Part shown: one piece after another, positions 8,669 through 60,523 of the stretch
Layout: the number at the start of each line of letters is the position of its first letter
Position numbering within the stretch: position 1 is the first letter of the stretch
NCBI GenBank assembly: GCA_000004985.1
Contig: GG738924.1
Length of the DNA stretch: 64,000 nt
Source of the DNA: Naegleria gruberi
Taxonomy: Eukaryota
Direction: 5' to 3' (one strand)
The notes under the pieces: generated by a model
Databases searched by the model: none
What the model saw: only the letters and a program-made list of their open reading frames with translations
Told to the model about the DNA's origin: nothing
Position numbers and translations under genes: made by a program

Positions 8669-11600
8669 ATGAAAAAGATATCAACCTTTTTAAAGAGGAA
8701 GGAAAGTGAACATAGATCAAAGCATGCCAGCAATAGCAGCTCTGGGAGTTCTCCAATCTCTCCGAATCATCAAGGCTTTGTGATGGTTGAACATGAAGAC
8801 GCCATTCTAATTTCTAAAAACAGCAGCACAACAAGTTCAACAGCTGTGGAATGGAATGAAAAGCTTGAAGAGGATTTCAAGCAATACTTGGACAAAACCT
8901 TCAAGAATCAAACTGAAACAATAGAAAAGTTGATGGCCCTTCCACCAAAGAAAAAGATGGAAATTCTCAAATTGAAGCAATCTCAGATCAGTTCTCAGAA
9001 CAATATCTTACTTCACTTGGAAACAACAATGAATAACATCAAACATCCGCTCTCCACCTTGACACTACATACGCAACTGAAGGAATTGAGAGTTGTCTTG
9101 TCAAACTATGCCGAAGCAGAAGAAGCATTCATCAATAGAGGTGGTGTTGATTTCACCATGAAATCTCTTTCCAATAATCTCGGTAATCTGAATGGAGCTG
9201 CAGACGAGAATAACAAACTCTTGTTTGCTGAAATTACCATCTCTATTATTATGATCTTGACTCAAATTTGCAAAAACAATGAAGGATTGGAAAAGTTTTT
9301 AGAATATCCAAATAGTATTGAAGAAATCTCCAAGGCTCTCTTACTGGAACATGAAGATAAGGGTCAGAGGAACTCGATATATTTCCTATTGTCATCATTG
9401 TGTTTTTGTAGGGATGGTACCTACGTTCCACAAGTTTATGAATCTGTTAAGAATTTGTCAAAAATTAGAGGTGAAGAACAATTCTTAACTGTTGTGCAGC
9501 ATTTGAGAGAGGCCAACAGTTTAAAGAGCAGATACATCATTCTGGCCTTTATCAATATTTTGATGAGGCAAGCTCCTGTTCAATTCAGAAGAGAGCTAAA
9601 GCAACGATTTATCAGCGCAGGTGTTTATACTGAGGTTAAAAAACTGGAAAAGATTAAAGTGGAAAATAAGGATACAGAGGATGCCCTCAAGCTAAGCAAC
9701 CAAATAGAAATTTTCAACAAGATTATTTCTGGAGATTTAGAAGAAGATATTTTTGATGATTTGAGAGAAATTGTCGAAGAATTAGAAAATTCTAATGTTC
9801 CTCTAGCTGAGGGAATTAAGGCAGTTTCTGAAAAGATGTTGGAGAAATGTAATCAAACTTCGTAAGTTTTAAACAGTTTCAACATCATTAATTATTTATT
9901 CAACAACAGATCAAGTTTGGAATGGGTCAATGATATCAAAATAATTTTGGAGGGAAGTGAATCTGTAAACTTGTTAAAAGATAGAAATCTCTCACTTCAA
10001 AAACAAGTGGATACCATTACAAAAGATAATGCACAATTAAAAGATCAAATGGAAAAGCTAAAAGTCAGAATTGAAGCTTTGGAGAAGGCACCACCAACAG
10101 TTATTGTGAAAAAGGTTGCAGTTGTAAGACAAGTTGGAGAATTGAAATCGTCTGGTTCCGGTAGTAATCTTGCAGGTTTAGTGGAATCCAATTCACCGAC
10201 AACATCACCTCCTAATATTTTTCCAGATGATACAGTTCCCTCTTGTAACAGCTCTGTTCCACCACCTCCTCAAGCTAGCTCTGTAGTGCCTCCACCTCCA
10301 GGAATGGGAGGTGTTGTTCCTCCACCACCAATTGGTTCAAGCTCAGTTCCTTTGCCTCCCATGACCATCAGTAGCTCTGTTCCTCCTCCACCTGTGGGGT
10401 TCAATAGTTCTGTTCCACCTTCGTCATCTATTCCTTTACCACCAGTAATGGGAACTGTTCCACCAAATTCTGCCATTCCTTTGCCACCAGGAATGAATAG
10501 CTCTGTTCCAATGCCTCCAGGTATTCCTGTACCACCAGGAATAGAAATGCCAGTGGTAGGAAGTACTGTTCCTCCTCCTCCAGGTTTTGGTGGCGTTCCT
10601 CCTTCTGGGTCTGTTGTTCCTCCACCTCCAGTTGGAATGACTAGCTCAGTACCATTACCTCCAGGAATGGGAGTATTGTTCCTCCACCGCCTTTCTCAAA
10701 TGTACCAATGCCTCCTGGTTTTGGAGGTGTTCCACCTCCTCCTGGAATGAATGGTACTGTTCCAGTTCCTCCACTAGGAGTGGGAATGCCACCCCCACCA
10801 ATGTTTGGATTTGTACAAACACCACCTGTTATTGCAAGTGCTCCAAAACTTCCAGACATACCTAAGAAGAAGGCTTCTGTGCCCACTAAGGACGTAAGAC
10901 TCAACAAACTAGATAATAACAAACTTCAAAAGTCTGTTTGGATGAAGAAGAACATTCATGCCAAGTTATTCGATATTGATATTCCAGAAAAAGAATTAGA
11001 AGATATGTTCGCTCAAATTTCTAAATCCCCTAGTGTAGGTTTAACTCCAGAAAAGTCAGAAAAACCAAAGGATACAACAATAAGTTTATTGGAAGGACCT
11101 AGATTGCAAAACGTTTCCATCTTTATGAAATATCTCAAGATGCCTTCAACTCAGTTGGTTGAAAAGATAATGACCATCTCTGATGATTTTAATGAGGAAT
11201 CAATTGGAAAATTGTTGAATCAAGTTCCTAATGAAGATGAAATTCAAAGACAAAATGATTTTGATGGAGATGAAGCCACATTGAATGAAGCCGATAAGTT
11301 TATCAGAGCCATGATGAAGGTTCCGAGACTTGCTTCCAGATTGAAATGTTGGAATTTCAAGTTGAAATATGTTGAAACAAAGGCTTGTATCAACCCAGAC
11401 TTGGAAACCATCATTTCAACATGTGCTAGTTTGGTAGAATCTGAAAAACTTCAAGAATTGTTTGCTGTCATTTTGGCTTTCAGTAATTACCTTAGCAGGA
11501 CTGGTATCCATGGATTCAAATTGAACTCTCTCCAAAAATTAAAAGAAACAAAAGGTAATGCTAAGAACATTACGCTCCTTGATATGATTGTCAAGCATAT

Positions 11601-12510
11601 TACAAGTGCAAAACCAGATATTCTCAAAGTTAAAGAAGATTTGAACATGTTGGAAAGGGCTGCCAGAGTTGAAATGCAAACATTAGCAGACAAGATTGAC
11701 AGTATGGAAAAGTCTATTGCTCTTCTGAAAACAGAGATTCAATACTATAGTAAAAATCCACAGCCAAACGATAGATTCTTGGAAGTTTTTGGATCCTTCC
11801 TGAATGAATGTGAGGATGAAATGAAACTTATTAAGGAAAAGCAACAAAATATGGATAATCAAATTTCAGGGGTTGCTGAATTCTTGGGTGAAGACCCAAA
11901 CACTGTAAAGAAGGAACCAAAGGAAATGTTTTTAATGTTAAATTCATTCATTACTGACTTGTACAAATCAGTAGATAATTTGAAAAAGGAAGAAGAAAAG
12001 AGAAAGAAGGAAGAAAGCAAGCTTGCTAAGGAGAAAGACAATCGTCCATCATCCCCTGTAGTTACAGTTGGTGGATTGAAGGCATTTAATTCATTCAGAA
12101 CACCATCTAAAGTTCCTCTCATTGCTGAAAATGCAGATGTTTCTGTAACACCAAGCAGTCCTGTAACTCCAATTATTATTTCCTTACCAGATAGTGAACC
12201 AAGTGTGGAAATCACTTCTCCAAGTACACCAATTCAAGAGAAGCAAAATGAGCCAACTATCGAATTAACCAAGAATGGACATGATTTGCTTTCACCTTCG
12301 ATGCAAATGGGTAATTCTTTCGAAGAAAATAGTCCATCAAGACGTAGTGGTCACATTAGAAATCCTTCCATTCTCATGTCTCTTGAAAAGTCCCTATATG
12401 AAGGTTCTGCCTTATTGTCCCCATCTACAAAGACAAGAAAGAGAGGTGGAGGAATGATGACAGGTTTAGATATGAATGAATTGAGTGCTGCATTAAATAA
12501 AAAAAAGTAA
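8669..12510 (+). CDS. Diaphanous-type formin (GBD/FH3 - FH1 - FH2). Exon 1 is 8669..9861, followed by a 48-nt intron 9862..9909 (GTAAGT...ACAG). Exon 2 runs 9910..12510, with an apparent 1-bp frame disruption in the FH1 repeat near 10670-10680.
   Basis: N-terminal armadillo-like GBD/FH3 region, then a coiled coil. FH1 has about 12 poly-Pro repeats (VPPPPGMGGVVPPPP...). The FH2 domain starts at KKASVPTKDVRLNKLDNNKLQKSVWMKK...MFAQ and runs to the stop. Frame A (9917..10750) and frame B (10708..12510) both encode FH1-like Pro repeats. One repeat copy reads tattgtt where an earlier copy reads gtgttgtt. Confidence 0.85.
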
Positions 12511-13957: not shown

Positions 13958-16090
13958 ATGACTCACAAGAATAACTCTACCACCAACAATACCACAACGT
14001 CTTCATCCATTGACCAAAATGCTACCACTTTTCAATTTCAATTTGTCTTTGACAAGGTCATGCTCAACCAAAGAACATTGAAATTATTCAAAGAATTTCT
14101 AATGAAGAGTTTACATTCCCCAGAAGCTATCCTCTTCTATGAGAAAGTTCTCGAATTTAAATCATTCGAAGGACAAGCTCTGACTGAACATCAGACGAAA
14201 CTTGCTTAGAATATTGTGGAGAATGTTATTTTTGTTGGCTCCGCGCATGAAATTAACATTGGAAAAAGAGAGAGAAATCAGGTACTTGAGAGGGTGAAGA
14301 GATTATTAGGTAATAACCCACAAAGAAGTGAAGTTGAGTTGCAATATTTTTCGAATAGTAAGCAAACGCTCAATAAGAAAGAAACCGAAAGTGATGAACA
14401 ATCAGAAACTTCAACAAATAAGCAAAAGAGCTTTTCTTCGATGAATGAGACTTCTACCTTCATAATGGTCGATCCAATTAACATTTTTGATGAAGCATTA
14501 GTGACAGTTAAGAGACAACTCAAAGAAGACGTGTTTCCACTTTTTTTGAGAAGTGACAGATTTCTGACATTTTGTAAGAAGGCATCGAGAGAAACTCTGG
14601 GAGAGATTGGTTATGAGAGAAGACAGTGTCGTCAATCTGGCAACGTTTCTATTGAAGATTTTTGGAAATTTTACAGAGCTGATTGTGAATCTCTAAATGT
14701 CAATGGTCAAGATGTCAAATTTTTAAGCTCTTTATCAATAGATAGTTCTGATTGGACTCTATTAGAGCAAGAATACTTTAAAAAGAGTTGTTTTGCAACA
14801 TTTGTTTCATCTGAAACTCATTGCATGATTAGACCAGAAACTTCCGAATATAGAAATCCAAATTCACAACATATTTACAAATGTACAGGTGTCATTAATC
14901 ACTCAACTGAGAAAGTATTGAAAGCTCTGACAGATTCTCACTTTATGGCCACTTATGATAATAATTTAGCTGTTTGTGAATGCATTGATTTTGTAAATTC
15001 TCAAATTCAAAGCAATTCTCTTCCTGAATCATTATTCGAATTGGACGAAACTGTTCAATTCTCCTCCTCTATCATTCTACAAAATTATCCTTTCAACTGG
15101 CCACTTTCTGGAAGAGATTTCCTCACCAGTCAAACAGATGTCTATGAAAAATCCACTCAACGTTATTTCATTCTCATCAAATCTGTCAACCATCCACTTG
15201 CCAAACCAAAAGAAGGAAGTGTCAGATCTTATCTTGTCGGTGGTTGGATTATTCAACCAATTTCTGATGAATTCTCACGATATACTTTGGTCAATTATAT
15301 GGATGTGAATATGAGTGAAAAATTAGTTCAGCAATTTCAACTGAGGAGAGGAAAGAAATTATTCCATTCGTTGAATAAGATATTGAAAGAGATGGACAGG
15401 AGTTCAATGAATGAGGTGAATGATTCGTGTGGTTTATTGGAAACTTTGGACGAATTTTTGGATTTATACGAAATTAACATTGATGACCAATATAGGAAAG
15501 TGAAGAAACTAAACAAGATGGAAATGAAGGAACTTCTCACTCCAAGAAAAACTCACCTCGCAAGCACTTCTACCTCAAATCTCGACCACCTTTCGAATAA
15601 GATTATTCGATTGACCTACATTTCCAAATGTAAGAAAAATTTCAATTCTACAGAGCTTGACAAGATTGCAACCACTGCAACTCGATTCAATTCCAGTATC
15701 AACGTAACTGGTCTCCTTCTCTATTGTAAAGAAGGAATTTTCTATCAAGTATTAGAAGGTGAAAAAGAATTAGTTTCAAATCTATTCGAAAAGATTAAGA
15801 AAGATTCGAGACATTTCGATGTGAAATGTGTCAAAATGGAAACAGATTTATGTGATCGTGATAGACAATTCAAGGGATGGGCCATGAACACAGTTAACTT
15901 GGAAACGTCAGATCATTTCTTTGCTGATTTTATGAAAGAATTATTAGTGACAGTTTCAAAGATGGAGCTCAATAACATGACAGAAGATCAAGCTGTTGGG
16001 TTTATATTCAAGACATCGAGGCAGATGTTTGAGAAGAGTAGGGAGAGCGGATTTGTTTCGAGATTAGGTTCTTGTTTTTGTATGAAATAA
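13958..16090 (+). CDS. RGS domain - START-like lipid-binding domain - BLUF photosensor domain protein. ORFs 13958..14209 and 14216..16090 are in the same frame, interrupted only by an in-frame TAG at 14207..14209.
   Basis: RGS: FQFQFVFDKVMLNQRTLKLFKEFLMKSL...FDEALVTVKRQLKEDVFPLFLRSDRF, aligned by memory colinearly to RGS4 with the TAG at the RGS4 KKIY helix position. START-like: SGRDFLTSQ...ILIKSVNHPLAKPKEGSVRSYLVGGWIIQP...TLVNYMDVN. BLUF (about 15595..15900): IIRLTYIS...INVTGLLLYCKEGIFYQVLEGEKELVSNLFEKIKKDSRH...FKGWAMN, with the photoactive Tyr, Gln and Trp/Met positions conserved (AppA-like). Confidence 0.8.
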
Positions 16091-16472: not shown

Positions 16473-19400
16473 ATGAGCAGCGTTGAATATCAGCACGGCA
16501 ATGAAGTGCTTTTCATAAAGAAGGGAAGTAGTGGCGAGTCAACCAACAACAATAATAACGCGATGACCACAGAAAGTAATGATCATAAGGCACAGGAATT
16601 GGCTCATCACGGCGATTCGAAGGATGAACATGTTGATAGTCAACATCATCACCCGAAAGGACCGTTTACATTAACGGCAGATGAATTGTCAGAGATGCAT
16701 CAGAATAAGGATTTGAAAGGGTTGCAAAAGATGGGTGGAATGTCTGGTTTGATGAGAGATTTGAAAACTGATGCAAAGAGGGGGATTGCCTGGAAGTCGA
16801 ATTATCAAAGTTATGATGAGAGGACGAATCTGTATGGTCTTAATGTGTATCCTGAACCGCCGGCTAAAGGTCTCTTCAAAATATTCTTTGAGGCTCTATC
16901 AGACGAAACTCACATTATTTTAATGATATTCGCCTTCATTTCGATGGTGTTGGGATTGGCATTTCCTGAATCTGAAGAGGAAAGACCAATTGGTTGGATT
17001 GATTCGTTTGCAATTTATATAGCTGTAGCTATTGTTTGTGTGGTTACAACCGCCAACGACTATTCGAAAGAGAAAAAGTTTAAAAACTTGTCAAGAGAAT
17101 CCAAAAAGGTAATGGTTAAGGTTATTAGAGATGGGGAAAATTTTAGCGTTCTCACTGATGATATCAGAGTTGGAGATATTGTTGAAATTGAACAAGGAGA
17201 TGGTATTCCAGCTGATGGGCTCTGTATTGAATCAAACCATTTGAAAACAGACGAATCTGTCATGACAGGAGAACCAGATTTGATTAAGAAGAATACAACA
17301 GAATTAATTTTCTTATTGAGTGGTTGTACAGTTGCTGAAGGTTCTGGAAAGATGCTTGTTACAGGTGTTGGTGTTGGAAGTGAATGGGGAAGAACCTTGC
17401 AAAGTTTGAAAGAAGCCAATGAAGAACAAAGAGAAACTCCTCTCGAAGCCAAATTAGATAAGCTCGCCATCAATATTGGTAAAGTTGGTACTGCATTTGC
17501 GATTGGTACTGTTACCATTTTGATTTTGGCCTTTTGGATTAAGAAATTGATGTACACTTCAACTTGGGTTGAGGCCTCATCAACATTTGAAGAAACTTGG
17601 CAAGAAAAGAATGTAGTTGATGTGGTCAAGTACTTTATTATTGCTTTGACTATTGTCGTCGTTGCTGTCCCTGAAGGTTTACCACTTGCTGTCACAATTG
17701 CTCTTGCTTACTCTGTTCGTAAAATGATGAAAGATCAGAATTTAGTTAGACACTTGGCAGCTTGTGAGACTATGGGTGGTGCTAACAATATTTGTTCTGA
17801 CAAGACTGGTACACTTACTTTGAATCAGATGAGAGTTACCCAAGCTTATTTTGGAGATCGATTCTTTGGTGAGCAATTGAGCTCAATACTGTTGACATTG
17901 AAATCACCACTGTTGCAAGTAATCATTGATGGTATTGTTGCCAATTCAAAGGCAAACTTGGTCAAGGGTGATGACAATAATAAGAATAAGGAGTATGCCA
18001 CTCAAGGAAGTAAGACTGAAGCTGCTCTTTTACTTTTACTTGTCAAACATTTGAATCAGACCATTGACAGTTACAAAGATAGAAGAAATGAATTGCTAAG
18101 TGAAGAAAGAGGCTCTCACCTCCAACTTCCATTCAATTCCAACTTGAAGCGTATGAGTACCATCGTTACAAACTCTGAGGGAGAAACCAGATATCGTCTC
18201 TTCACAAAGGGTGCTTCTGAAATTGTCCTCAAATTGTGCTCCTATCACATGGCTAGTGATGGTTCATTGAGAAAGATGGATTCTGAAAAGGAAGCTGAAA
18301 TGATGAAATGTATTGAAGATATGGCTAATCAAGGTTTGAGAACAATTTGCTTGGCCTACAGAGATGTCAATCCAGAAGTTGAATTCTCATCACGAGCTGA
18401 TGAAGAAAATTATTTAGAAAATATTGATCCAGTTACCTTGGAACAAGATTTAGTATGTATTGGTATTGTAGGCATTAAGGATCCATTGAGACCTGAAGTA
18501 CCAGCAGCTATTGAACAATGTAAGAAATCAGGTATCACTGTCCGTATGATTACAGGTGACAATATCTTGACAGCCAAGTATATTGCCAGAGAGTGTGGTA
18601 TCTTGTCGAAGGATGGTATTGCTATTGAAGGCCCAACATTCAGAAAGATGACTCCAGAGCAAATTGATGAGATTCTTCCAAAATTACAAGTTATGGCTCG
18701 TTCCTCACCAACTGACAAGTTTATTCTTGTAAAGCATTTGAGAAAGAAGGGTAACGTTGTTGCTGTGACTGGAGATGGTACCAATGATGCTCCAGCTCTT
18801 AAAGAAGCCGATGTTGGATTGAGTATGGGTCTTAGTGGAACCCAGGTTGCTAAGGAAGCTTCTGATATCATTATTTTGGACGATAACTTCTCATCCATTG
18901 TTAAGAGTGTGTTGTGGGGTCGTTCCATTTACGAGAATATCAGAAAGTTTTTAGTTTTCCAATTGACAGTCAACGTGGTTGCTTTGATTTTAACAATTGT
19001 TTCTGCTGTTTCGTCTGCTTTCCAACATAATTCTTCCTATAGGCCACCTTTGAGTCCTGTACAAATGTTGTGGATCAACTTGATCATGGACACGTTTGCA
19101 GCTCTCGCCCTTGCCACAGAACCTCCAATTCCAGAACTTTTAGACAGAAAACCTCACGGAAGAAAGGATTCCCTCATTACAATGAGAATGTGGACCTTCA
19201 TTGCTGCTGAATCAATCTTCCAGCTCACTGTCATGTTCACACTCTTCTATGGAGCAACCTCATTCAGAGGACTTTCATTCAGCTTAGCCAGAAATGATGC
19301 TGAAATGAGAACCATCATTTTTAATGCTTTCGTATTTTGTCAAGTTTTCAATCAATTCAACGCAAGAAAGATTAATTTTGAGTATGATATTTTCAGAGGA

Positions 19401-19724
19401 GTTTTCAAGAGTTTCTGGTTTATTGGTATCACCATAATGATTTTCATTTTACAAATTGCCATCATTAACTTTGCCTATTATGATCCAATTCTTATTGGTT
19501 TGGGTAAGAATGATGGTTTGACTGCCTCCAATTTTACCCAGACCATTCCATTGAATTGGTATCAATGGGCCATAACTATTTCCATTGGTTTCATCAGTAT
19601 TCCATATGGCTTTTTAGTGAGATTCGTCAGCAGAATGTTTTTGAAATTATTGAGCTTGAAGAAGAATAACAGACAAATTACCAGTGATGGCTACGAGGAA
19701 ACCTATTCCAAAGCAAGTGAATAA
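16473..19724 (+). CDS. Plasma-membrane-type Ca2+-transporting P-type ATPase (PMCA, P2B)
   Basis: Motifs CSDKTGTLT (phosphorylation site), TGDGTNDAPALKEADVGLSMG, PEGLPLAVT, 10 predicted TM segments and a PMCA-like N-terminal region. Single 1083-aa ORF. Confidence 0.9.
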   Translation: MSSVEYQHGNEVLFIKKGSSGESTNNNNNAMTTESNDHKAQELAHHGDSKDEHVDSQHHHPKGPFTLTADELSEMHQNKDLKGLQKMGGMSGLMRDLKTDAKRGIAWKSNYQSYDERTNLYGLNVYPEPPAKGLFKIFFEALSDETHIILMIFAFISMVLGLAFPESEEERPIGWIDSFAIYIAVAIVCVVTTANDYSKEKKFKNLSRESKKVMVKVIRDGENFSVLTDDIRVGDIVEIEQGDGIPADGLCIESNHLKTDESVMTGEPDLIKKNTTELIFLLSGCTVAEGSGKMLVTGVGVGSEWGRTLQSLKEANEEQRETPLEAKLDKLAINIGKVGTAFAIGTVTILILAFWIKKLMYTSTWVEASSTFEETWQEKNVVDVVKYFIIALTIVVVAVPEGLPLAVTIALAYSVRKMMKDQNLVRHLAACETMGGANNICSDKTGTLTLNQMRVTQAYFGDRFFGEQLSSILLTLKSPLLQVIIDGIVANSKANLVKGDDNNKNKEYATQGSKTEAALLLLLVKHLNQTIDSYKDRRNELLSEERGSHLQLPFNSNLKRMSTIVTNSEGETRYRLFTKGASEIVLKLCSYHMASDGSLRKMDSEKEAEMMKCIEDMANQGLRTICLAYRDVNPEVEFSSRADEENYLENIDPVTLEQDLVCIGIVGIKDPLRPEVPAAIEQCKKSGITVRMITGDNILTAKYIARECGILSKDGIAIEGPTFRKMTPEQIDEILPKLQVMARSSPTDKFILVKHLRKKGNVVAVTGDGTNDAPALKEADVGLSMGLSGTQVAKEASDIIILDDNFSSIVKSVLWGRSIYENIRKFLVFQLTVNVVALILTIVSAVSSAFQHNSSYRPPLSPVQMLWINLIMDTFAALALATEPPIPELLDRKPHGRKDSLITMRMWTFIAAESIFQLTVMFTLFYGATSFRGLSFSLARNDAEMRTIIFNAFVFCQVFNQFNARKINFEYDIFRGVFKSFWFIGITIMIFILQIAIINFAYYDPILIGLGKNDGLTASNFTQTIPLNWYQWAITISIGFISIPYGFLVRFVSRMFLKLLSLKKNNRQITSDGYEETYSKASE

Positions 19725-27269: not shown

Positions 27270-30200
27270 TTACAAATCTTCATCATCTTCCTCATCGTCA
27301 TCATCAAATTCTTCATCACTGGCATCATTATCAGTTGTTCCAGTCATTGTAAAGTTTTCCATATCCGCATCGAACAATGTTAACATGGCATCTTCTTCCT
27401 CCAAGATTGCCTCTGGTGAAATAAATGATTGTCCAAAGCTGGCTGTACTGTTTTGTCTGGAAAGCATCTTACTGGTATCATCAGAACATGAAGAAATTGT
27501 GCTGGAAAGTGGAGAAGTTGGTGGTAAATCGGTTCCCAATTGTTGTTTCTCCAATTGTTGTTGCTTTTCCAATTGTTTTTTGAGTTTCTTTTCCTTCTTT
27601 TTCTTTTCTCTCTTGTGTTTCTTGATGGTTGCTGCAAGACTCTTGTTTCTGATATTTCTACCCATTTTCAAGTCATTGTAGAGAGTTGCTGACATGTCGA
27701 CTCTTTCGGCAGCTTCCTTGCCCATGCAGGAAATGACATGTTTCCAAACAGGATCTTCTTCTGGAATAACTGGAATGCTGTTAATGTTCTTTCGAATATA
27801 ATCATTGAAACCTTTCATCATACCCTTGGCACGATCCATTCTCAACAAGTTGATGGCAAATCTGGCATTTCCACCAACATCCAACAAGTGAATTTGAGTA
27901 ATATTAGTTCTATAAGAGTCAAGTTTCTTAATGGAATAGTATTGGAAATCTCTGATATCAATGAGCTTCTTTCCTTCATTGACGCCCTTGCCATCCATGT
28001 AAAATCTTTCGTGTTCGCATGGTTTGTAGAGGAGTGTTAATTTTTCTTCATTCTTATCATAGTAAGCTGTACAAACACTCAAGAAACTTCTCTTTGTTGT
28101 GAATGGGAATGGGAAACCAACTCCGTATCTGATAACACCACATGACCTAGGACCTCTCTTGAATTTCTCATTTGGATACATCTTTTTCAAAGTTTCAAAA
28201 TCATAGAATGATAATTCTTCACAGGAGGTAATATTTGGATCGTATTTGTGAACTTGCAATCCTGGCATGCAACATTTCTTGACAGCGTCAAAAGGAAATG
28301 GTAAAATACCTGTCCACTTGTTAATTTGCATTTTCTGATAGAATCCAACGTTAGGGAAGAGTACCTTTTCTGATAATTTATATACATTGATAGCTCCTTC
28401 CTTCTTGGATCCCAATAATTTCCATTGATAATCATCTCTTGCCAAGTATTCCATAAATTCAATGTCCCTGTCAAAGACAAATGGTAATTTAAAGTCTTCA
28501 TCTCCGTATGGATAGTAAGTGGCTTCCTTGAGACGTCCAACTTTGGTCAAATAACTCAAACCTTTGTGTTGTAATTTCTTAAACCACACATCACTTCTCA
28601 CAAACCTAGGGAAACTGTCATTTTCCAATTCATACATGACAGAATTCTTCATTGTACGGAACAACAAGTGTGGAGGTTGTGGCAACAACCATTCATCAAA
28701 TTCCTGATATTGTTTTGATTCTTGGAAGAGTCCAACAAAGGTACGTTTGTCACGAGAGGAAATGTTAATTTCCTTCTTTGAATCTTCCTCAATAAAATCT
28801 TTCATAATTTGAATTGCTAACATGATTTGCTTTCTGTAAACTTTGAGAACTTGATCATATTTGGAACGTGGAGTATTTGGTGGAAGTGTAAGGAATGCGT
28901 GTTGGAGAGATCTTGGTCTATCTCCAGATGTTCTTGATGAGCTACCTGAAATATCAGAACGTTCAGAAGTTGGATCATCCTCAGGTGATGCAACTCCATT
29001 CCTCAATTCTTCCTTCTTCTTTTCCTTCTTTTCAGTGAGAACTGTCAAGAGACTCTTCATGCCATTGTCTTCTTGTCCACTATTACTTGAAGCACCAACT
29101 GGGGTACTATCTTCACTTTCACCACTTTCACTCTTTTCAACGAGTCCCAAGTTTAATTTTGGTAATGCTCTTGGAGTTGGTGTGGTAAGAGAAATACCAG
29201 GTTCTCCTACAGTACCAGAAGTGCCATTTGTTGCATGTTCATTGGTGAAGTGTTCAGTTGTTTTGATTGTGACCACCTCAGCATCAGTTTCAGTTGCCTT
29301 TACAGTTGGCACATCCTTCAAAATCATGTCCATCAAGGTGGTTTCTTTCTTTTCAGATGGAGAGGTTGGATTTGAATGTGGAGTATTGACATTACTATTT
29401 GTATTGCTATTTGGATTGCTTGCAGTTGCATTTTGATCCTTCTTCTTTTTCAAAATGGAAAGTCTCAAACTAAATCTATTAGACTTTTCAGATTCGTCAT
29501 CTTCTGCATCATTGGTAGTTGGAGTACTATTAGTTTGTGGTGTATTTGCTTTAGTTTCATCCACCTTTGGCTTTTTACCCAATCCAAAGAATGATAATTG
29601 TTTCTTGGCTGCTTTTCTTGGTGTAGTTGGTTCAGATTCAGATTTGGATGGTGATTTAGTCTTATCATTTTGAGTCATCATGAGCATCATCTTTGGTAAA
29701 TCAGAGAATGGAGTTTTAAAATGTGAAAAAGTGGCTGATGAGCCAGATCCAGAATTTGACAAGGAAGATGCAGCAGAACCACCTTCAAGAGCCAAATTAG
29801 CATTAGCAGTTTGAATATCCTTGACCATTTTCATCATTTTGTAATAGGTAAATTCCAATTCATTCACTCGAGTAATAAATTCCAAAGGTTCTGTATTGTG
29901 TTCAGTTTCCAAATATCTGTAAAAGGCACGAAACATGGTTCTATCTGTGAAAATTCCCTGGAATGAGAATAAATAATCTTCCAAATTGGTTTCAACGAAT
30001 AATTGTTGTTGAGATGGCAACTTGCCAGTTTTTGAAATGTGTGAAGAGGAGGCAACAGTTGACAATCCTCTCTCTGCAGAACCTGATGATTTCTTAGTTG
30101 GCAGTGAAAAGATCATTGGTGTTTCCTTATATCTCTTTTCATCTGCATCTATTTTAGTTTCAATGGTTGGTGTAGCTTGACCATCTTCACTACCATTTTG

Positions 30201-30572
30201 TGCTCCTGCTGATGTTGTTGTCGATGATGATGTTGAATTGTTTTTATCATGTGAAGAATTGGTTCTGAAACGATTGAAAAGTTTGGAAGCAAATGAAGAT
30301 GTGTGAGTTTTCTGAGTTGGAGTGGATGTAGTAGTATTTGGAGTTGAGGAGGTTTTGGTATTGCTATTCTTTCCATTAGATGTAGATGTGGTGATGGTGT
30401 TATTATTGGAAGTAGATGTGGAAATGTTGGTATGTTCGTCTTCATCATCCTCTTCTTCCTCTTCGACTGCTCCCAGGGCTTCTATATTCACTCCATATAA
30501 TGTATTATTATTATTATTATTAGCAGTATTATTATTATCATTATTATTGGTTGGATGTGGTGGAGGTTTCAT
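27270..30572 (-). CDS. RGS-domain protein with a C-terminal START-like domain. It is a paralog of the 13958 and 49755 genes and has long low-complexity linkers.
   Basis: RGS N-terminal half FSFQGIFTDRTMFRAFYRYLETEHNTEPLEFITRVNELE and C-terminal half DSFPRFVRSDVWFKKL. The START-like C-terminus is TKRSFLSVC...LYKPCEHERF...ITQIHLLDVGG...FAINLL. Single 1100-aa ORF. The S/T/N-rich and acidic tracts are typical of this genome. Confidence 0.6.
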   Translation of the reverse strand: MKPPPHPTNNNDNNNTANNNNNNTLYGVNIEALGAVEEEEEDDEDEHTNISTSTSNNNTITTSTSNGKNSNTKTSSTPNTTTSTPTQKTHTSSFASKLFNRFRTNSSHDKNNSTSSSTTTSAGAQNGSEDGQATPTIETKIDADEKRYKETPMIFSLPTKKSSGSAERGLSTVASSSHISKTGKLPSQQQLFVETNLEDYLFSFQGIFTDRTMFRAFYRYLETEHNTEPLEFITRVNELEFTYYKMMKMVKDIQTANANLALEGGSAASSLSNSGSGSSATFSHFKTPFSDLPKMMLMMTQNDKTKSPSKSESEPTTPRKAAKKQLSFFGLGKKPKVDETKANTPQTNSTPTTNDAEDDESEKSNRFSLRLSILKKKKDQNATASNPNSNTNSNVNTPHSNPTSPSEKKETTLMDMILKDVPTVKATETDAEVVTIKTTEHFTNEHATNGTSGTVGEPGISLTTPTPRALPKLNLGLVEKSESGESEDSTPVGASSNSGQEDNGMKSLLTVLTEKKEKKKEELRNGVASPEDDPTSERSDISGSSSRTSGDRPRSLQHAFLTLPPNTPRSKYDQVLKVYRKQIMLAIQIMKDFIEEDSKKEINISSRDKRTFVGLFQESKQYQEFDEWLLPQPPHLLFRTMKNSVMYELENDSFPRFVRSDVWFKKLQHKGLSYLTKVGRLKEATYYPYGDEDFKLPFVFDRDIEFMEYLARDDYQWKLLGSKKEGAINVYKLSEKVLFPNVGFYQKMQINKWTGILPFPFDAVKKCCMPGLQVHKYDPNITSCEELSFYDFETLKKMYPNEKFKRGPRSCGVIRYGVGFPFPFTTKRSFLSVCTAYYDKNEEKLTLLYKPCEHERFYMDGKGVNEGKKLIDIRDFQYYSIKKLDSYRTNITQIHLLDVGGNARFAINLLRMDRAKGMMKGFNDYIRKNINSIPVIPEEDPVWKHVISCMGKEAAERVDMSATLYNDLKMGRNIRNKSLAATIKKHKREKKKKEKKLKKQLEKQQQLEKQQLGTDLPPTSPLSSTISSCSDDTSKMLSRQNSTASFGQSFISPEAILEEEDAMLTLFDADMENFTMTGTTDNDASDEEFDDDDEEDDEDL

Positions 30573-34050: not shown

Positions 34051-37000
34051 ATGGATATTAATTCATCTACCAAGGAGGAAACACCTTCAAATGGTGATGG
34101 TACAAAGGATAAACCTAATTGTGCTGATGATAATTCTTCTAACAAGGAAGAAGAAACTATTCGAAATGATACGAAACGAAATTCTTCTTCGTCTACAAAA
34201 CCAATAATTATTCATCAAGATGGAGAATCTAATACACCACCAACAATTGAAAAATCAAATTCTCCTCCTACTACAATAACACATAGTCAATCTTCACCTA
34301 ATATTTTCTATCCGAAAGGAAATCAACAAGTTTCTAATAATTTTCGTCATCATCAACAGATAGTTTTCAATACACCATCAACAACAACAATATTTGATGC
34401 TTCCCATCCGTCTAATTCTATCGAATTAAAAGAAGTTTCGAATAGTAATACTACCGTTGCAATTCCCCTTCATCAAACAAATCAAACTAATCAAACTAAT
34501 GTCCAATCGACAAGAAATGGAAAATATTCATCTCTTGCCGATAATTCCTTCTCCTCTACTAACATGCCTTCACCAAATCATTCAACAACTGTCAGTCCAA
34601 ATAATACGAAAGGTGAGACTAAACAAACTCTCAGACATCGAGCATTTTCGAATGTAAAATTGATTTCACCTAGAAAGAGACTGAAACAATCTCCTTCCAC
34701 TTCTAGTTTTCAAACTTCTTCTGATTCTTGGGATGTAAAAGAAAATCGTAAAGAATTGGAACAATTATTCGATTTTAAAAGAAGAGGTTATTCGAAAGGA
34801 GGCACCAAAGATTGTTGCTTTAATTTCTGGACAGCTATTTATAATACACTTTGTCCAGTGAATAGAATTTCGAACATTTTACTCTTCATTGTAATTATTC
34901 ATACATTAGTTTGTATTATTGCAACTTCAGTGATTTTATATTCTGCGTAAGTTGATTTTCTATTAGAATGTTTTTGGAATTAATTTCAATTCATTGAACT
35001 GTCATCATGTATCATACTTTATTTTTGGATTAATTTTCAATATTCTAATTTCTTTTAAAAGTGGAGAACAAAGTGTTCAAGAAATAACTCGACTCAATAA
35101 TATGAATCTAGTTCAAGAAATGGTTCAATTTTTGGATGTTGCAACCAAATCGAGTACAGAATTATCCATGCTCTTTTCAGTTCAATCGAAATATTACAAT
35201 GATACGAAAGGAAATGGAAGTTTTGTCGAGCCAATCACTCGATTCTCAACAGTTGTTGCTCCAAAATTGTATACCTATTCAAACTCCTTGTCTATGGTTT
35301 ATTATGGAAATGATAATGGTGATTTTGCATTTGCTGAGAGGTCTAGCACTGGTCCATATTTGTACCTTTCTCAGAACATTTTTCAGGATCAATTTAGTGA
35401 ACTGTTCAAGAATAAGACATTCCCTGCTTCGAATAATATTTATGTGTTTCTTACGAATGATTATTTTGAGCCCTATCTTCAAAAGAGTAATACAGTATTT
35501 AGGATTTTGTACAATTCAACATATGATCCGAGAGTGAGACCGTGGTACACTGCCACTGAATCATTGGAAAAGGGAAAACCAGTTTGGAGTAATGTATTTG
35601 TGGATGTGAATGGAAATTTAAGTATTGCTGCCAGTTTAGTTTTGAATAATTTGAATAGTATCAAACCCTCCTTCAAGGAAGTGATTGGTGTTCATGTGAT
35701 TTTCAAAAAAATTCAAACCTACCTGTTAGGACTCTATTCCTATACGAATAATTTGATGATTTTGATGGAGAATAATGGAAATTTACTCACTTCCAATGAA
35801 GATAGCTTTCCACTCACTTATTCCAACTTGTCGAGAGTGAACATATCCTCTTTTACCTCTGCCACTAAGTTTTCAAAGGAGGAGAAATCATTCTGGGGAT
35901 TGAGCAATGAAAAGCTAGATCTCATTGAAAAGATTTCCAATGTAATGGTTTCTAACAATTTACTAGATAAGAGATTTAATGGAACTGTTCCGTGCACTTC
36001 TGAAACTTTTCAAGCAACACAGGTTGCAGACATTCCAGATCAATTCTGTATTCTGAATCGATTTGTAGCCATCAAGCAGTATAACACATCAACTTCTTTT
36101 GTGAGTGTGAGTCGTTTGATTGATGCATGTGGCATGGATTTCTATTTTATAGTGAGCAGAACGTATTACTCATTCGCTGATGTATTGGTTGACCATTATG
36201 TTGGTCTATTGGTTGTTCTTGTAGTTACTGTTTTGATTGGTACACTGGCTGTACTGGCTCTCACATCATGCATCTCTTATTCACTCTTCTTTGTCTCTAG
36301 AAAATTGTATTACATTTCCAAGTTAAGACAAGGGGACAAACCAAAGCAAAGTTTAGCTTACAAGGCACAACGAGCCATCAATATGATATTCTATGAGGTT
36401 CACACTTTACAAAAATGTTTGGATAGTGTAGAAAGAGCCAACTCGAGTTTTATCAAGTACATTCCAAGAAGTGTTGTCAAGTTTATTGTGGAAGGTTCAT
36501 CAAGTGCCAAACTAGGAATGATTAACGCTGAAATTACAATAGTATTTACAGATTTAGCCAATTTTACAAATATCAGTGAGTCATTGTCAATTCACAATTT
36601 GCTTTTAGTTATTTCCAGATATTTTGAAGTTGTCACGTCAAATGTTCAAGAATGTGGAGGAATAATTGACAAATATATTGGAGACGGTTGCATGGCATTG
36701 TTCAATACTCCCTATCAACCAGTCACTCATCATGCAGAACATGCTTGTAAGGCTGCAATCAAAATTGTCAAGGGATTGAAAAAACTAAACAAGGAAATGG
36801 AAGAAATTTACAAGATGAAACTTCCAACAGAAATTAGTGCACGAGTTGGTGTTAATACTGGCAGCGCACTGATTGGAAATATTGGAACTCATGATAGATT
36901 GAACTTTACTGCTGTTGGCGATTGTGTAAATGTTTCAAGTCGTTTGGAATCTCTCAATAGAATGTATGGAACTAAAATATTGATTGGTGAAGGAAGTGTT

Positions 37001-37984
37001 TCCACCTTCAAAGGAATTGACAAGCTCAGAGGAGAAACAAAGGACCATTTTTCAACCATGCTCGATCAAAGAGAATTTTCTCTCTCTGATCTCTCACAAA
37101 AAATGATGAATTTGGTAGAATTTCAAGTAGCCACTCCAAAGACACACGAGAGTGTCGCTGCTCAGGCATCTGCTGATTTGGGAAAGGAAATGAGCTTTAG
37201 CTCTTCTTCCAATAATTTGAAAGCCACATCAACTTCATCCTCTCAGGACACTTCTCTGCCGCAAGTTGTGACCTACTTTATCGATACCATTTGCTTGAAA
37301 GGTAAAAATCAACCTGTTCCAGTATTTGCAGTTCAATGTGATAGAAAATTAGCGACATCTGAACAAATTTACATTGAAAAAATGTTGGATCTGGTTCGTA
37401 GAGAGCTATTGGAAGAGAAACGATTGAAAGATGTCATTCATTTATTGCGGAGTTTGATGCTTTTCTTTGAGGAGAATCAATTGACCGATTCACCAGTATT
37501 TAGAGAACACAACACTGATCATTATGAGTTTAAATTTGGAGAGGAAATTCATACACCTATTTCTAGCATCAATGGAGAAAAGACCGAGGAGGAAATTTCT
37601 ACCAATGTTGAAGGAGATCCCTATCCAGTCATTTACAAGGCCATTTCGAAACTAAAGGAAAGATTGGAACTTACCTTAATGGAACACGAAGCCAAGAAGA
37701 GAAAAGTCCAAATCAACAAGAAACGTAGTTTACTAACAGCACTCTCTATTGATACTCGATCCAAATCTGATCCACTCATTCATCCAATACTTCCAATTAT
37801 TCCAGATTTTTCAACAACTTCACTTTTGGAAGAAAACAACAATATTGAAACTGTGGAGAACTCTGAATCAACACCAACCATGGCCAAATATGAATATTAT
37901 CGACAAATGGCCTTGATGGAAAATGAAAATAGAAGAAGCTCAATGAAATTGGACGATTTTGCTTTGGTATTGCATGAGAAATAA
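34051..37984 (+). CDS. Receptor-type class III adenylyl/guanylyl cyclase. Exon 1 is 34051..34946 and exon 2 is 35062..37984. The intron 34947..35061 is 115 nt (GTAAGT...AAAAG).
   Basis: The S/T/N-rich N-terminus ends in a TM helix (LLFIVIIHTLVCIIATSVILY) and is spliced in phase to an extracytoplasmic sensor-like domain of about 380 aa (Cache/CHASE-like). A second TM (LLVVLVVTVLIGTLAVLAL) follows. The cyclase homology domain is AEITIVFTDLANFT...IDKYIGDGCMALFNTP...ARVGVNTGSALIGNIGTHDRLNFTAVGDCVNVSSRLESLN...YGTKILIGEGS, followed by a C-terminal tail. Confidence 0.75.
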
Positions 37985-49164: not shown

Positions 49165-49754
49165 TTTCTTTGTTGTGATCTTCAGCAACAGTGTTGACAA
49201 CTTTGATGGGAAAGGAAACTTTTCCAAGCCTCCGAAACAAAACGGGTTGATGTTATGCCTTACATATCATCTCGACTCGATTTTTTGGTTATGAAAATTT
49301 TTTGTGATGTGTTGATTGGTATTGTATAATCTTTTTTAGGACCAAAGCTGTAATAATAATTTTTAAAAAATATTTGAAAAAGATATTGTTAATAATAATA
49401 TCGGGTTGATGTTGTTAGTGTTTGAGTGGGTTAACAAGTTGAAACACCTGAAGGAATTTCAGATCAGCACGATGAGATTATTTAAATAGTAGTGGTTTTT
49501 AAATTTTTATTGTTGGACAAGTGTTCGTTGAGGAATGACCATACTCAATTCATCAATTACACGAATAACAATTTGAATATCGCCAAACAATCACTGTGTT
49601 TTACTCTTTACTTTGTGTGCTCAACAATAAAAAGAGTACTAGCCTTGAAAGCTTGTTTAGATTCTTACTGCCTTGATGTGTAACATGTCAGCCAATCTAA
49701 GGAAGTAAACGAAATATAAAAAAATATGAAACTCGTCATCACCGTTACATCAAC

Positions 49755-51296
49755 ATGAGTAATAATAGCACATCACAACAGAAGAAACGAAAATTCGAAA
49801 CCAACCGATATATGGTTGTTTTTGAGGAGTTGCTGAGAGCTCCAGAAGCAAGAGAAAATTTCAGAGGTTTTCTCAAACTGGTTCATTGTGAGGAACCTCT
49901 TCAATTGATCGATGCCATTGATTCATACAGAACCGAACATAAAAAGCTAATAGATAATATTGATGACAGTGCTTCCGATTTTGATTTTCAAGGTTTTAAA
50001 AAGATACTACTCCTTGTGAATCAACTTGAAAATATTGTAAATACCTTTGGATTGGAAGATTCTATTGAAAAGTTTTCACATTATTATATGGGTGCTTGGA
50101 CTCGTACACTGAATCTCTACCATCTTGTAACACTAAAATTGGAATCCATTTCCAACTCTAACAAAACTAACAACAAGCAAATATTTGAAATTTTAGAAAT
50201 TTTAAATCCTTCCAATATTTTGGAAGATGTAGAGACAAAGGCAATTCTTGATTTGAAATATGATGAATTTCCAAGGTATGCCAGGTCGAATACGCTTCAC
50301 TTGTTTCTTGTACGAAAGGGTGAAGAATATACGAGAAGAATTGCTATTAATATTGCTAACGATTTTTATGTAGATATTAGATTTAAACCTAAAGATTTTG
50401 AATCTCAATTAATGACTGATAAGGATGTTTATTTTGCTTATACATTGAGTGAAGATACACCTGATTGGAAAGAATTAACTTGTAGCGAGAAACCTAACTT
50501 TTTACAGACCTTTGTTTCAAAAACAGTTTATTCAATAGGACCAGACGAAATGAAAGGAATGAGATTATTTAAATTGGTAATGCATCTGCCCTATGCAGTT
50601 GAAGATGTTTGGGCTACGTATTGTGATATGAATACACGATTCAAACTTGATCACACTCTCATGAAAGATTTCAAATTGCTGAGATATATTCCACCACATC
50701 AGAAGAAATCAAGTGAGCAACGAGATTCCATTTCATTTTATGAGATATTTGATGAGAGAGATAATCGATACACTGTGGATAAACCACCACTTGCCATTCA
50801 GATTGGAGCTCTGGGTATTGAAATGCACATTCCACTATTGAAACACAGAGACTTGCCACATACAATGACTTCACTTTATGATCCCTCGGTGAATTGTTAC
50901 ATGAACATTGGTCACACGTGCAAGATTGAGGAATCACTCAGGCGTGCACCTACAGATAGAGTCAAGTCTGAAATTTTGTTCAATTACATGTTCTTTGGTA
51001 CTGGAGAAAAATCAACAAGATTTATTCACACAGTGTATACAGACCTACATGTTCCTTTGGATTCTGATTTTGTTTTGAGTAAGATTTGGAAGAATAGAAG
51101 CAAACAATTACAGGCCTCATTTGAAGAATTACTAGCAGAAAAAACCAAGGGAGGAACCATTTCCATTGACAAATCTATGGTGAATGATCATTTCAAATAT
51201 TTTACAGCTGTGGAAGACAATGCCAAATTGAATAGAAAGTGGTACAGAGATTATTTGAGAAAGAAAAATCAAATGCAAATTGAATATGGTGATTGA
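49755..51296 (+). CDS. RGS-domain protein with a C-terminal START-like region (third paralog of the RGS-START family)
   Basis: RGS N-terminal half MVVFEELLRAPEARENFRGFLKLVHCEEPLQLIDAIDSY and C-terminal half DEFPRYARSNTLHLFL, with an insert between them. The C-terminal region of about 300 aa has START-like landmarks (RDSISFYEI..., ...FIHTVYTDLHVPL...). ATG...TGA. Confidence 0.5.
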   Translation: MSNNSTSQQKKRKFETNRYMVVFEELLRAPEARENFRGFLKLVHCEEPLQLIDAIDSYRTEHKKLIDNIDDSASDFDFQGFKKILLLVNQLENIVNTFGLEDSIEKFSHYYMGAWTRTLNLYHLVTLKLESISNSNKTNNKQIFEILEILNPSNILEDVETKAILDLKYDEFPRYARSNTLHLFLVRKGEEYTRRIAINIANDFYVDIRFKPKDFESQLMTDKDVYFAYTLSEDTPDWKELTCSEKPNFLQTFVSKTVYSIGPDEMKGMRLFKLVMHLPYAVEDVWATYCDMNTRFKLDHTLMKDFKLLRYIPPHQKKSSEQRDSISFYEIFDERDNRYTVDKPPLAIQIGALGIEMHIPLLKHRDLPHTMTSLYDPSVNCYMNIGHTCKIEESLRRAPTDRVKSEILFNYMFFGTGEKSTRFIHTVYTDLHVPLDSDFVLSKIWKNRSKQLQASFEELLAEKTKGGTISIDKSMVNDHFKYFTAVEDNAKLNRKWYRDYLRKKNQMQIEYGD

Positions 51297-60503: not shown

Positions 60504-60523
60504 CTGGAAAATGTAATGGAAAC

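What the first reader, a model, noticed from the sequence alone, without database searches (positions are those of the whole stretch)
13958..16090. RGS-START-BLUF protein: a candidate blue-light-regulated GAP for G-alpha, an architecture I have not seen described
One reading frame encodes three domains in series. First, a complete RGS box (the catalytic GAP domain for heterotrimeric G-alpha). Second, a START/Bet v1-like lipid-binding domain with the diagnostic RDF...SVNHP...GSVRSY...GGWIIQP signature. Third, a canonical BLUF flavin photosensor with the photoactive Tyr (LTYIS), Gln (FYQVLEG) and Trp/Met (GWAMN) all in place. The BLUF partners I know of are EAL/GGDEF domains, adenylyl cyclases (PAC, including protist PACs) and short stand-alone proteins; I know of no BLUF fused to an RGS or START domain. 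Two further RGS-START paralogs without BLUF lie in the same window. This gene therefore looks like a family member that acquired a light sensor, which would put G-protein signalling (and possibly lipid sensing) under blue-light control.
Basis: partly seen in the sequence, partly recalled or inferred. Interest (0 to 1): 0.85.

Follow-up and report, generated by a model that had tools for sequence, protein, structure and literature searches.

The report
RGS-START-BLUF photoreceptor gene with stop codon
This Naegleria gruberi gene joins a G-protein "off-switch" (RGS), a lipid-binding START domain and a blue-light flavin sensor (BLUF). The same design is conserved in related amoebae and has not been tested experimentally, but the copy in this window has a premature stop codon inside the RGS part.

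Summary

The window is N. gruberi NEG-M. A second N. gruberi scaffold encodes a 92%-identical N-terminus with Gln at codon 84, inside a chimeric gene model. No database protein carries the N. gruberi BLUF part.

The architecture is a conserved heterolobosean family. Intact single-gene members occur in Willaertia magna, in Acrasis kona (four proteins, three mis-named PAC subunits) and in metagenomes. All BLUF-bearing START domains form one clade, so the sensor was acquired once and long ago.

BLUF photocycle residues and the key RGS asparagine are conserved. The closest characterised analogue is the fungal RGS-LOV protein BcLOV4. A 2019 survey already listed RGS among BLUF partners.

Verdict: a real, uncharacterised photoreceptor class and a new variant of a known kind. 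This allele cannot make the full-length protein as assembled.

The parts
13958..16090 (+). RGS-START-BLUF gene (710 codons plus TAA), N. gruberi NEG-M, interrupted by one in-frame TAG
   Evidence: Translation. Organism identified from exact matches of neighbouring genes to N. gruberi proteins.
14045..14590 (+). RGS box, residues 30-211. The N-half is 30-108 and the C-half 170-211, split by a ~60-aa low-complexity insert.
   Evidence: Pfam PF00615 E 2.7e-11. Two-piece alignment to CG5036, RGS17 and RGS1. Asn100 (= RGS4 N128) is conserved in 25 of 28 family members.
14207..14209 (+). In-frame TAG at codon 84. The second N. gruberi haplotype has Gln here (..TKLAQNIVE..).
   Evidence: No internal TAG in other window genes.
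14633..15472 (+). START domain, residues 226-505, including the extra conserved helix SCGLLETLDEFL
15473..15604 (+). START-BLUF linker: a short basic helix followed by a disordered stretch
   Evidence: Two-domain AF2 model; residues 304-320 of the construct have pLDDT below 50. The linker's charge is not conserved across the family.
15605..15886 (+). BLUF core, residues 550-643, with Tyr554, Asn578, Gln597, Trp641 and Met643
   Evidence: Pfam PF04940 E 6.2e-25. Best solved relatives are OaPAC 4yus (E 1.8e-23) and bPAC 5m27. Key residues conserved family-wide.
15917..16045 (+). Two C-terminal helices after BLUF (alpha3 and alpha4, residues 654-668 and 676-696)
   Evidence: AF2 secondary structure. 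The alignment to the OaPAC alpha3 'handle' extends past the BLUF core.
27270..30572 (-). Paralogue: RGS-START without BLUF, 1100 aa
   Evidence: BLASTP E 5e-9 to the target's RGS-C/START region. Family HMM hit. Pfam RGS.
49755..51296 (+). Paralogue: RGS-START without BLUF, 513 aa (EFC36885.1 / D2W253)
   Evidence: Family HMM E 5e-19 over profile positions 55-394. Exact database match. Pfam RGS E 3.8e-4.

Best explanation
The locus is the Naegleria gruberi member of an old heterolobosean family of soluble flavin photoreceptors. Their architecture is RGS, then START, then a PAC-type BLUF domain with two C-terminal helices.

Proposed mechanism for the intact protein (inferred, not shown):
- In the dark, BLUF docks on the START domain.
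- Blue light rearranges the Tyr-Gln-FAD hydrogen-bond network and the beta5 Trp/Met.
- The change passes through the BLUF C-terminal helices to START. This alters START's lipid or membrane engagement, or its hold on the RGS box.
- That changes the access of the RGS GAP surface to membrane-bound G-alpha-GTP.

In Naegleria some G-alpha subunits self-activate, so GAPs are the main control point. Such a protein would therefore place G-protein signalling directly under blue-light control. This would be a BLUF counterpart of the fungal RGS-LOV-DUF protein BcLOV4.

The allele in this window carries a nonsense codon (Gln84 to TAG) and a Phe90-to-Val change at a conserved aromatic position. As assembled it can make at most an RGS-less START-BLUF product from an internal Met. 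The other haplotype is intact at codon 84.
For: Shown:
- All three domains are present.
- Ten complete RGS-START-BLUF representative clusters, plus START-BLUF forms, are among the top 150 hits of an exhaustive profile search.
- Named members occur in Willaertia magna and Acrasis kona. Two Acrasis proteins pass the Pfam cut-offs for RGS, START and BLUF together.
- Orthologues are intact single genes.
- BLUF-bearing START domains are monophyletic.
- BLUF Tyr, Asn, Gln, Trp and Met and the RGS4-N128-equivalent Asn are conserved across the family.
- The START+BLUF two-domain model has pTM 0.81 despite a disordered linker, which suggests a defined interface.
- The protein has no transmembrane segment.
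- The second haplotype has Gln at codon 84 and Phe at position 90.

Context from papers:
- N. fowleri has self-activating G-alpha subunits and more than 100 RGS proteins with measured GAP activity (PMC9283941).
- BcLOV4 shows light-induced membrane binding, with its RGS domain inhibitory in the dark (PMC6099885).
- Blue light induces Acrasis development, and BLUF genes are up-regulated during aggregation (PMC11589745).
Against: - No experiment exists for any family member: no flavin binding, photocycle, GAP assay or lipid ligand.
- The RGS box has Ala at RGS4 N88 and Leu at RGS4 R167. Most family members have Arg at the second position.
- No PAE or coordinates were available, so the START-BLUF interface is inferred from pTM alone.
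- No conserved polybasic helix like that of BcLOV4 was found in the linker.
- The window allele has a stop. Whether the other allele carries an intact START-BLUF part is unknown, because its gene model is chimeric.
- No orthologue was seen among N. fowleri or N. lovaniensis proteins, so the gene may be decaying in the genus.
Confidence: 0.55

Rival explanations
1. The window copy is a null allele or young pseudogene. The TAG is real and nothing functional is made from this haplotype, so the locus only records a family that is being lost in Naegleria.
For: - In-frame TAG.
- Phe90 to Val at a position that is aromatic in 24 of 27 relatives, six codons after the stop.
- No gene model covers this locus in the N. 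gruberi proteome. Neither the exhaustive search nor exact look-ups find one.
- No N. fowleri or N. lovaniensis RGS-START-BLUF was identified among the hits. Only 20 of the 150 were looked up by name, and RGS-START proteins of both species were among those.
Against: - There is only one disruption in 710 codons.
- START and BLUF are pristine: high-confidence folds with all key residues present.
- Residues 166-319 are identical to the other haplotype.
- A single C-to-T change could also be an assembly or read error.
Confidence: 0.35
2. The TAG is a sequencing or assembly error, or a lab-strain polymorphism. The true gene is an intact 710-aa RGS-START-BLUF.
For: - It is a single-base difference (CAG versus TAG) from the other haplotype.
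- The rest of the ORF is intact.
- The scaffold is a draft with N gaps.
Against: - The surrounding 165 codons differ from the other haplotype at 19 further positions and by two short gaps. This is therefore a genuinely distinct allele and not a read error on the same sequence.
- Other genes in the window match database proteins exactly.
Confidence: 0.25
3. This allele yields an RGS-less START-BLUF protein, translated from Met162 or Met170. It acts as a light-gated lipid-binding or lipid-transfer protein independent of G-alpha.
For: - Natural START-BLUF proteins without an RGS hit exist: Willaertia KAL9658275.1 (P0012), P0025 and P0031.
- START+BLUF is predicted to form a compact unit, pTM 0.81.
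Against: - There is no evidence for internal initiation.
- The product would carry a dangling RGS alpha7-9 remnant.
- Some START-BLUF hits may be truncated gene models.
Confidence: 0.15
4. The RGS box is a non-catalytic RGS-homology module, as in GRKs, axin or sorting nexins. It serves for docking, and light controls START-mediated lipid handling rather than GTP hydrolysis.
For: - Divergent RGS: Pfam 44 bits, a ~60-aa insert, Ala at RGS4 N88 and Leu at R167.
Against: - The catalytic-interface Asn (RGS4 N128) is conserved in 25 of 28 members.
- The best solved matches are R4/RZ-type GAPs.
- Similarly divergent Naegleria RGS domains do show GAP activity (PMC9283941).
Confidence: 0.2

Closest known systems
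Fungal RGS-LOV-DUF photoreceptors (BcLOV4 / BcRGS1, MoRGS5; Glantz et al. 2018, PMC6099885)
   Same: - N-terminal RGS domain fused to a flavin blue-light sensor and a lipid-interacting domain.
- Soluble protein.
- Proposed logic: light controls membrane or lipid engagement and thereby RGS access to G-alpha.
   Different: - The sensor is LOV (PAS fold, Cys-FMN adduct), not BLUF (ferredoxin-like fold, FAD hydrogen-bond switch).
- The domain order is RGS-LOV-DUF, not RGS-START-BLUF.
- The lipid contact is a polybasic amphipathic helix, and no conserved equivalent was found here.
- There is no sequence homology outside the RGS domain, so the resemblance is convergent.
Photoactivated adenylyl cyclases (OaPAC, bPAC, euglenid and Naegleria PACs)
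   Same: - The BLUF domain is of the PAC type. Best solved hits are OaPAC (E 1.8e-23) and bPAC, against 1e-7 to 1e-10 for AppA and PixD.
- The alignment extends into the alpha3 helix.
- Acrasis family members are even annotated as 'PAC subunit alpha'.
   Different: - There is no cyclase domain.
- BLUF is C-terminal to its partner domains, not N-terminal.
- The helices after BLUF lead to a short tail, not to an effector domain.
RhoGAP-START proteins (DLC1 / STARD12, STARD13, STARD8)
   Different: - The GAP domain is RhoGAP, acting on small GTPases, not RGS acting on heterotrimeric G-alpha.
- There is no photosensor.
BLUF-effector survey of Kaushik et al. 2019 (Appl. Sci. 9:3924)
   Same: It lists 'regulators of G-protein signaling' among the effector types found fused to BLUF. 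This comes from a paraphrase of its abstract in PMC12562191.
   Different: - The paper itself could not be read here.
- It is not known which proteins it lists or whether the START domain was recognised.
- It is bioinformatic only.
Naegleria 7TM-RGS and other RGS proteins (Bosch et al. 2022, PMC9283941)
   Same: - Same genus and same RGS superfamily.
- Some have shown GAP activity on Naegleria G-alpha subunits.
- Two 7TM-RGS genes lie in this window.
   Different: - They are membrane receptors or lack sensor domains.
- That paper mentions neither START nor BLUF.

Membership tests
BLUF (PF04940) | Profile match above the Pfam gathering score | tested here: met
   87.6 bits against a cut-off of 25, E 6.2e-25, profile positions 2-91 of 92.
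BLUF (PF04940) | Photocycle residues: Tyr on beta1, Gln on beta3, a flavin-contacting Asn, and Trp/Met on beta5 | tested here: met
   Tyr554, Gln597, Asn578, Trp641 and Met643 align with OaPAC Y6, Q48, W90 and M92. They are conserved in 21-27 family members.
BLUF (PF04940) | [quoted passage not shown] | tested here: met
   The AF2 secondary structure shows E-H-E-E-H-E-E followed by two helices, with pLDDT of about 90-97 in the core.
BLUF (PF04940) | Binds FAD or FMN and shows a reversible ~10-nm red shift under blue light | not testable with these tools
   Requires recombinant protein and spectroscopy.
RGS (PF00615) | Profile match above the gathering score, covering the whole nine-helix box | tested here: met
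   44.3 bits against a cut-off of 23.9. Both halves align with CG5036 and RGS17 around an insert. In this allele, however, codon 84 within the box is TAG.
RGS (PF00615) | G-alpha contact residues (RGS4 E87/N88, N128, D163/R167) | tested here: inconclusive
   Glu56, Asn100 and Asp191 are present. Ala57 replaces N88 and Leu195 replaces R167.
RGS (PF00615) | Accelerates GTP hydrolysis on a G-alpha subunit | not testable with these tools
   Requires a single-turnover GTPase assay.
START (PF01852) | Sequence profile match | tested here: not met
   There is no PF01852 hit for the window sequence at E<=1. However, 10 of 24 homologous domains hit it, best E 3.3e-11. These include Acrasis P0010 (23.5 bits) and P0021 (30.5 bits), both above the cut-off of 22.
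START (PF01852) | Helix-grip fold of ~210 residues with a long C-terminal helix over a beta-sheet cavity, closer to true START domains than to other Bet v1-like proteins | tested here: met
START (PF01852) | Binds a lipid or sterol in the cavity | not testable with these tools
   The ligand is unknown.
Photoactivated adenylyl cyclase (the database name given to Acrasis members) | Class III cyclase catalytic domain C-terminal to BLUF | tested here: not met
   No Guanylate_cyc hit in the target or in P0010, P0011 or P0017. The 'PAC subunit alpha' and 'pacA' names are mis-annotations.
Fungal RGS-LOV (BcLOV4 class) | LOV domain with adduct-forming Cys, and a polybasic amphipathic helix before a C-terminal DUF | tested here: not met
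   No PAS/LOV hit. The linker is not consistently basic across the family. This is an analogue, not a member.

The most novel reading that the evidence does not exclude
The intact RGS-START-BLUF proteins of Heterolobosea are natural one-component photoswitches. Blue light, acting through a START lipid-binding domain, turns a G-alpha GAP on or off. This would be the first BLUF-controlled regulator of heterotrimeric G proteins. It would sit in a lineage whose G-alpha subunits self-activate, so that the GAP is the main control point. It could underlie blue-light-induced development in Acrasis, and it would have arisen convergently with the fungal RGS-LOV proteins.
Probability: 0.35. Interest if true: 0.75.

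Novelty: new variant of a known kind. Interest (0 to 1): 0.55.

Why it matters
BLUF sensors are characterised mainly with cyclase, EAL/GGDEF or small-partner outputs. A BLUF that controls an RGS GAP through a START domain would add a new output logic.

It would link light directly to heterotrimeric G-protein shut-off in amoebae, where GAPs rather than receptors set signalling for self-activating G-alpha subunits. It would also give a second, independent natural solution beside fungal RGS-LOV. That is useful both for evolutionary comparison and as a scaffold for optogenetic control of G-alpha signalling or of lipid binding.

Practical points:
- The N. gruberi reference proteome lacks this gene. 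One haplotype has a stop codon and the other has a chimeric gene model.
- Three of the four named Acrasis homologues are mis-named as PAC subunits.
- Catalogue-based surveys therefore under-count this class.

Tried and rejected
- **Intron spanning the TAG.** The only in-frame GT..AG pair (14147-14209, 63 nt) has a poor 5' splice site (GTTCTC). It would also delete conserved RGS helix sequence that the other allele's model keeps as coding. Rejected.
- **TAG as a sense codon.** No internal TAG occurs in eight other window genes, and one of them ends in TAG. Rejected.
- **BLUF as a separate gene.** The ORF is continuous from START to BLUF, and orthologues are single genes. Rejected.
- **A BcLOV4-like conserved polybasic linker helix.** The window's linker has a basic helix (QYRKVKKLNKMEMKE), but linker charge is not conserved across the family. 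Not claimed.
- **Synteny of the BLUF gene with the plasma-membrane Ca-ATPase.** Absent at the Willaertia locus. Dropped.
- **The search for homologous proteins.** It returned only one or two hits and missed the 92%-identical P0006. Its negatives were disregarded in favour of the exhaustive representative search.
- **Exact look-ups of possible N. gruberi gene products of this locus.** Nothing is on record.
- **The other scaffold carrying P0006.** It could not be fetched.
- **afdb50 fold search.** The library was unavailable.
- **Kaushik et al. 2019.** The paper is not held.
- **Acrasis paper supplements.** They contain no BLUF or RGS terms.

Full report
**What is in the sequence**

The frame starting at ATG 13958 runs to TAA 16088-16090 and translates to 710 codons. 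Codon 84 (14207-14209) is TAG..HQTKLA*NIVENVIF... The ORF finder therefore splits the gene into an 83-aa piece and a 624-aa piece.

With the stop masked, Pfam gives BLUF (PF04940, E 6.2e-25, residues 550-643) and RGS (PF00615, E 2.7e-11). It gives no START hit even at E<=1. The statement that one reading frame encodes them is not literally true.

**Origin**

Five neighbouring ORFs are identical to Naegleria gruberi proteins on a 196,593-bp scaffold. Examples are the Ca-ATPase at 16473-19721 (EFC36876.1 / D2W237) and the gene at 49755-51293 (EFC36885.1 / D2W253). The window is therefore N. gruberi NEG-M. It holds N gaps at 58051-60503 and 62981-63030.

**RGS**

The box aligns with Drosophila CG5036, RGS17 and RGS1 in two stretches, residues 30-108 and 170-211. 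A low-complexity insert of about 60 residues separates them.

- The Asn equivalent to RGS4 N128 (EINIG, Asn100) is present, and it is conserved in 25 of 28 aligned relatives.
- Ala57 occupies the RGS4 N88 position.
- Leu195 occupies the R167 position, where most relatives have Arg.

The fold assignment is safe. GAP competence is plausible but untested.

**START**

An AlphaFold2 model of residues 226-505 (14633-15472), built on 24 homologues, has pLDDT 92.9 and pTM 0.90 with a helix-grip topology.

- Foldseek agrees: STARD5, E 1.8e-11.
- At sequence level, PF01852 hits 10 of 24 homologous middle domains, best E 3.3e-11.
- Two Acrasis kona members pass the Pfam cut-offs for RGS, START and BLUF together.

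**BLUF**

The best solved relatives are the PAC-type BLUF domains of OaPAC (4yus, E 1.8e-23) and bPAC (5m27). AppA, PixD and BlrP1 score only 1e-7 to 1e-10. Tyr554, Gln597, Trp641 and Met643 align with OaPAC Y6, Q48, W90 and M92.

These residues, together with Asn578, are conserved across the family.

A model of START+BLUF (residues 226-710) has pLDDT 87.2 and pTM 0.81. [quoted passage not shown] The high pTM suggests a defined START-BLUF packing. No PAE or coordinates were available, so this is an inference.

**The stop codon**

No acceptable intron removes it, and TAG is not a sense codon in this genome.

A second N. gruberi protein, P0006 (376 aa, on a different scaffold of 40,920 bp), matches residues 1-319 at 92% identity. 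It reads ..TKLAQNIVE.., that is CAG for TAG.

- Within residues 1-319, all 19 aligned substitutions and two short gaps lie in the first 165 residues. Residues 166-319 are identical. This fits a divergent haplotype.
- At position 90, P0006 has Phe, which is aromatic in 24 of 27 relatives. The window has Val.
- P0006 is itself a chimeric model. After ..GVINHSTEK it jumps to the last 57 residues of the Ca-ATPase.

An exhaustive profile search of 1.84 billion representatives found no N. gruberi protein containing the BLUF part. Exact look-ups of the possible products also failed. The N. gruberi RGS-START-BLUF gene is therefore absent from the protein databases. The window allele is either a null allele or carries a base error, and I could not decide which.

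**Family**

The same search returned about 12,000 hits. Among the best 150:

- 10 complete RGS-START-BLUF representative clusters;
- 9 START-BLUF (some are fragments);
- about 85 RGS-START without BLUF.

Named members:

| Protein | Organism | Length | Database name |
|---|---|---|---|
| KAL9658754.1 | Willaertia magna | 644 aa | hypothetical protein |
| KAL9658275.1 | Willaertia magna | 494 aa (START-BLUF) | hypothetical protein |
| KAL0486363.1 | Acrasis kona | 645 aa | photoactivated adenylate cyclase subunit alpha |
| KAL0480502.1 | Acrasis kona | 625 aa | photoactivated adenylate cyclase subunit alpha |
| KAL0484174.1 | Acrasis kona | 583 aa | pacA |
| KAL0490722.1 | Acrasis kona | 585 aa | hypothetical protein |

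None of these has a cyclase domain.

- The Willaertia gene is a single intact 1935-nt exon.
- The metagenome homologue P0001 is intact once a 153-nt GTAAGT..AG intron is spliced out.
- BLUF-less RGS-START proteins occur in N. fowleri, N. lovaniensis and Willaertia.
- In a neighbour-joining tree of 82 START domains, all 13 BLUF-bearing ones fall in one clade of 16 tips. The other three tips lack a BLUF hit; two of them (P0055, P0073) look like truncated models. The window's two BLUF-less paralogues (27270-30572 on the minus strand, 49755-51296 on the plus strand) lie outside it.

BLUF was therefore gained once, before Naegleria/Willaertia and Acrasis diverged. It was not gained locally in this gene.

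**Literature**

- No paper in the held library contains 'RGS-BLUF' or 'BLUF-RGS'.
- The abstract of Kaushik et al. 2019 (Appl. Sci. 9:3924), as paraphrased in PMC12562191, lists regulators of G-protein signalling among BLUF effector types. The paper itself is not held.
- The closest characterised system is fungal RGS-LOV-DUF (BcLOV4). There, blue light exposes a polybasic helix and drives binding to anionic membrane lipids, with the RGS domain inhibitory in the dark (PMC6099885).
- Bosch et al. 2022 showed that N. fowleri has self-activating G-alpha subunits, 28 7TM-RGS proteins and 79 other RGS proteins, some with measured GAP activity. That paper mentions neither START nor BLUF (PMC9283941).
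- Acrasis kona is enriched in BLUF domains. Blue light induces its development, and two BLUF genes are up-regulated during aggregation (PMC11589745).

**Mechanism**

Shown: the domain composition, conserved photocycle residues, the conserved catalytic-interface Asn, a soluble protein, and a probable START-BLUF interface.

Inferred: BLUF photoactivation is relayed through beta5 and the C-terminal helices to START. This changes lipid or membrane engagement, or relieves autoinhibition. As a result the RGS GAP gains or loses access to G-alpha-GTP.

Rivals:
- the window copy is a dead allele;
- an RGS-less START-BLUF product is made from an internal Met;
- the RGS box is a non-catalytic docking module.

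**Verdict**

The architecture is real, conserved and experimentally uncharacterised. It is a BLUF analogue of RGS-LOV and so a new variant of a known kind. It is already present in public proteomes, partly mis-annotated, and was probably noted in a survey. The specific locus in this window is interrupted by a stop codon. Interest is moderate.

Noticed in passing
window 45278-47164 (-) and 47233-49227 (-): Tandem pair of paralogues, 51% identical. Each has about seven hydrophobic segments and a C-terminal RGS domain. This is the 7TM-RGS class known from plants, Trichomonas and N. fowleri.
   Followed up: partly
N. gruberi database protein P0006 (376 aa, on another scaffold of 40,920 bp): Chimeric reference gene model. 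The RGS-START N-terminus of the second haplotype is fused to the last 57 residues of the neighbouring Ca-ATPase. It hides the BLUF gene from the N. gruberi proteome.
   Followed up: partly
window 13958-51296: Five RGS-domain genes lie within about 37 kb: the target, 27270-30572, 45278-47164, 47233-49227 and 49755-51296. A class III nucleotidyl cyclase gene lies at 34994-37984. Naegleria has more than 100 RGS genes, so this may be partly chance and partly tandem duplication.
   Followed up: partly
window 8669-9865 (+) and 10708-12510 (+), with 9917-10750 between: GBD/FH3 and FH2 formin domains sit on consecutive ORFs. They probably form one formin gene split by introns or frame changes.
   Followed up: no
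window 53960-56722 (-): A 920-aa ORF with a weak DDE_3 transposase-type endonuclease match (E 5.7e-5), next to an assembly gap. It may be a mobile element.
   Followed up: no
window 58051-60503 and 62981-63030: Runs of N (scaffold gaps). ORFs listed across 57915-60566 are artefacts of the gap.
   Followed up: yes
C-termini of family members (window 16067-16087; P0014, P0023, P0025, P0031): Several members end in Cys-containing tails: ..GSCFCMK, ..GCCTIV (CaaX-like), ..ACVF and ..TCIM. This hints at lipid modification, but the motif is not conserved in the closest orthologues.
   Followed up: no
Acrasis kona KAL0486363.1, KAL0480502.1, KAL0484174.1: These are annotated as 'photoactivated adenylate cyclase subunit alpha' or 'pacA', but they have RGS (and START) plus BLUF and no cyclase domain. 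The names are mis-annotations.
   Followed up: yes
tool behaviour: The word-indexed homology search returned only one or two hits and missed a 92%-identical N. gruberi protein. The exhaustive search found about 12,000 relatives. Negatives from the indexed search should not be trusted for this family.
   Followed up: yes
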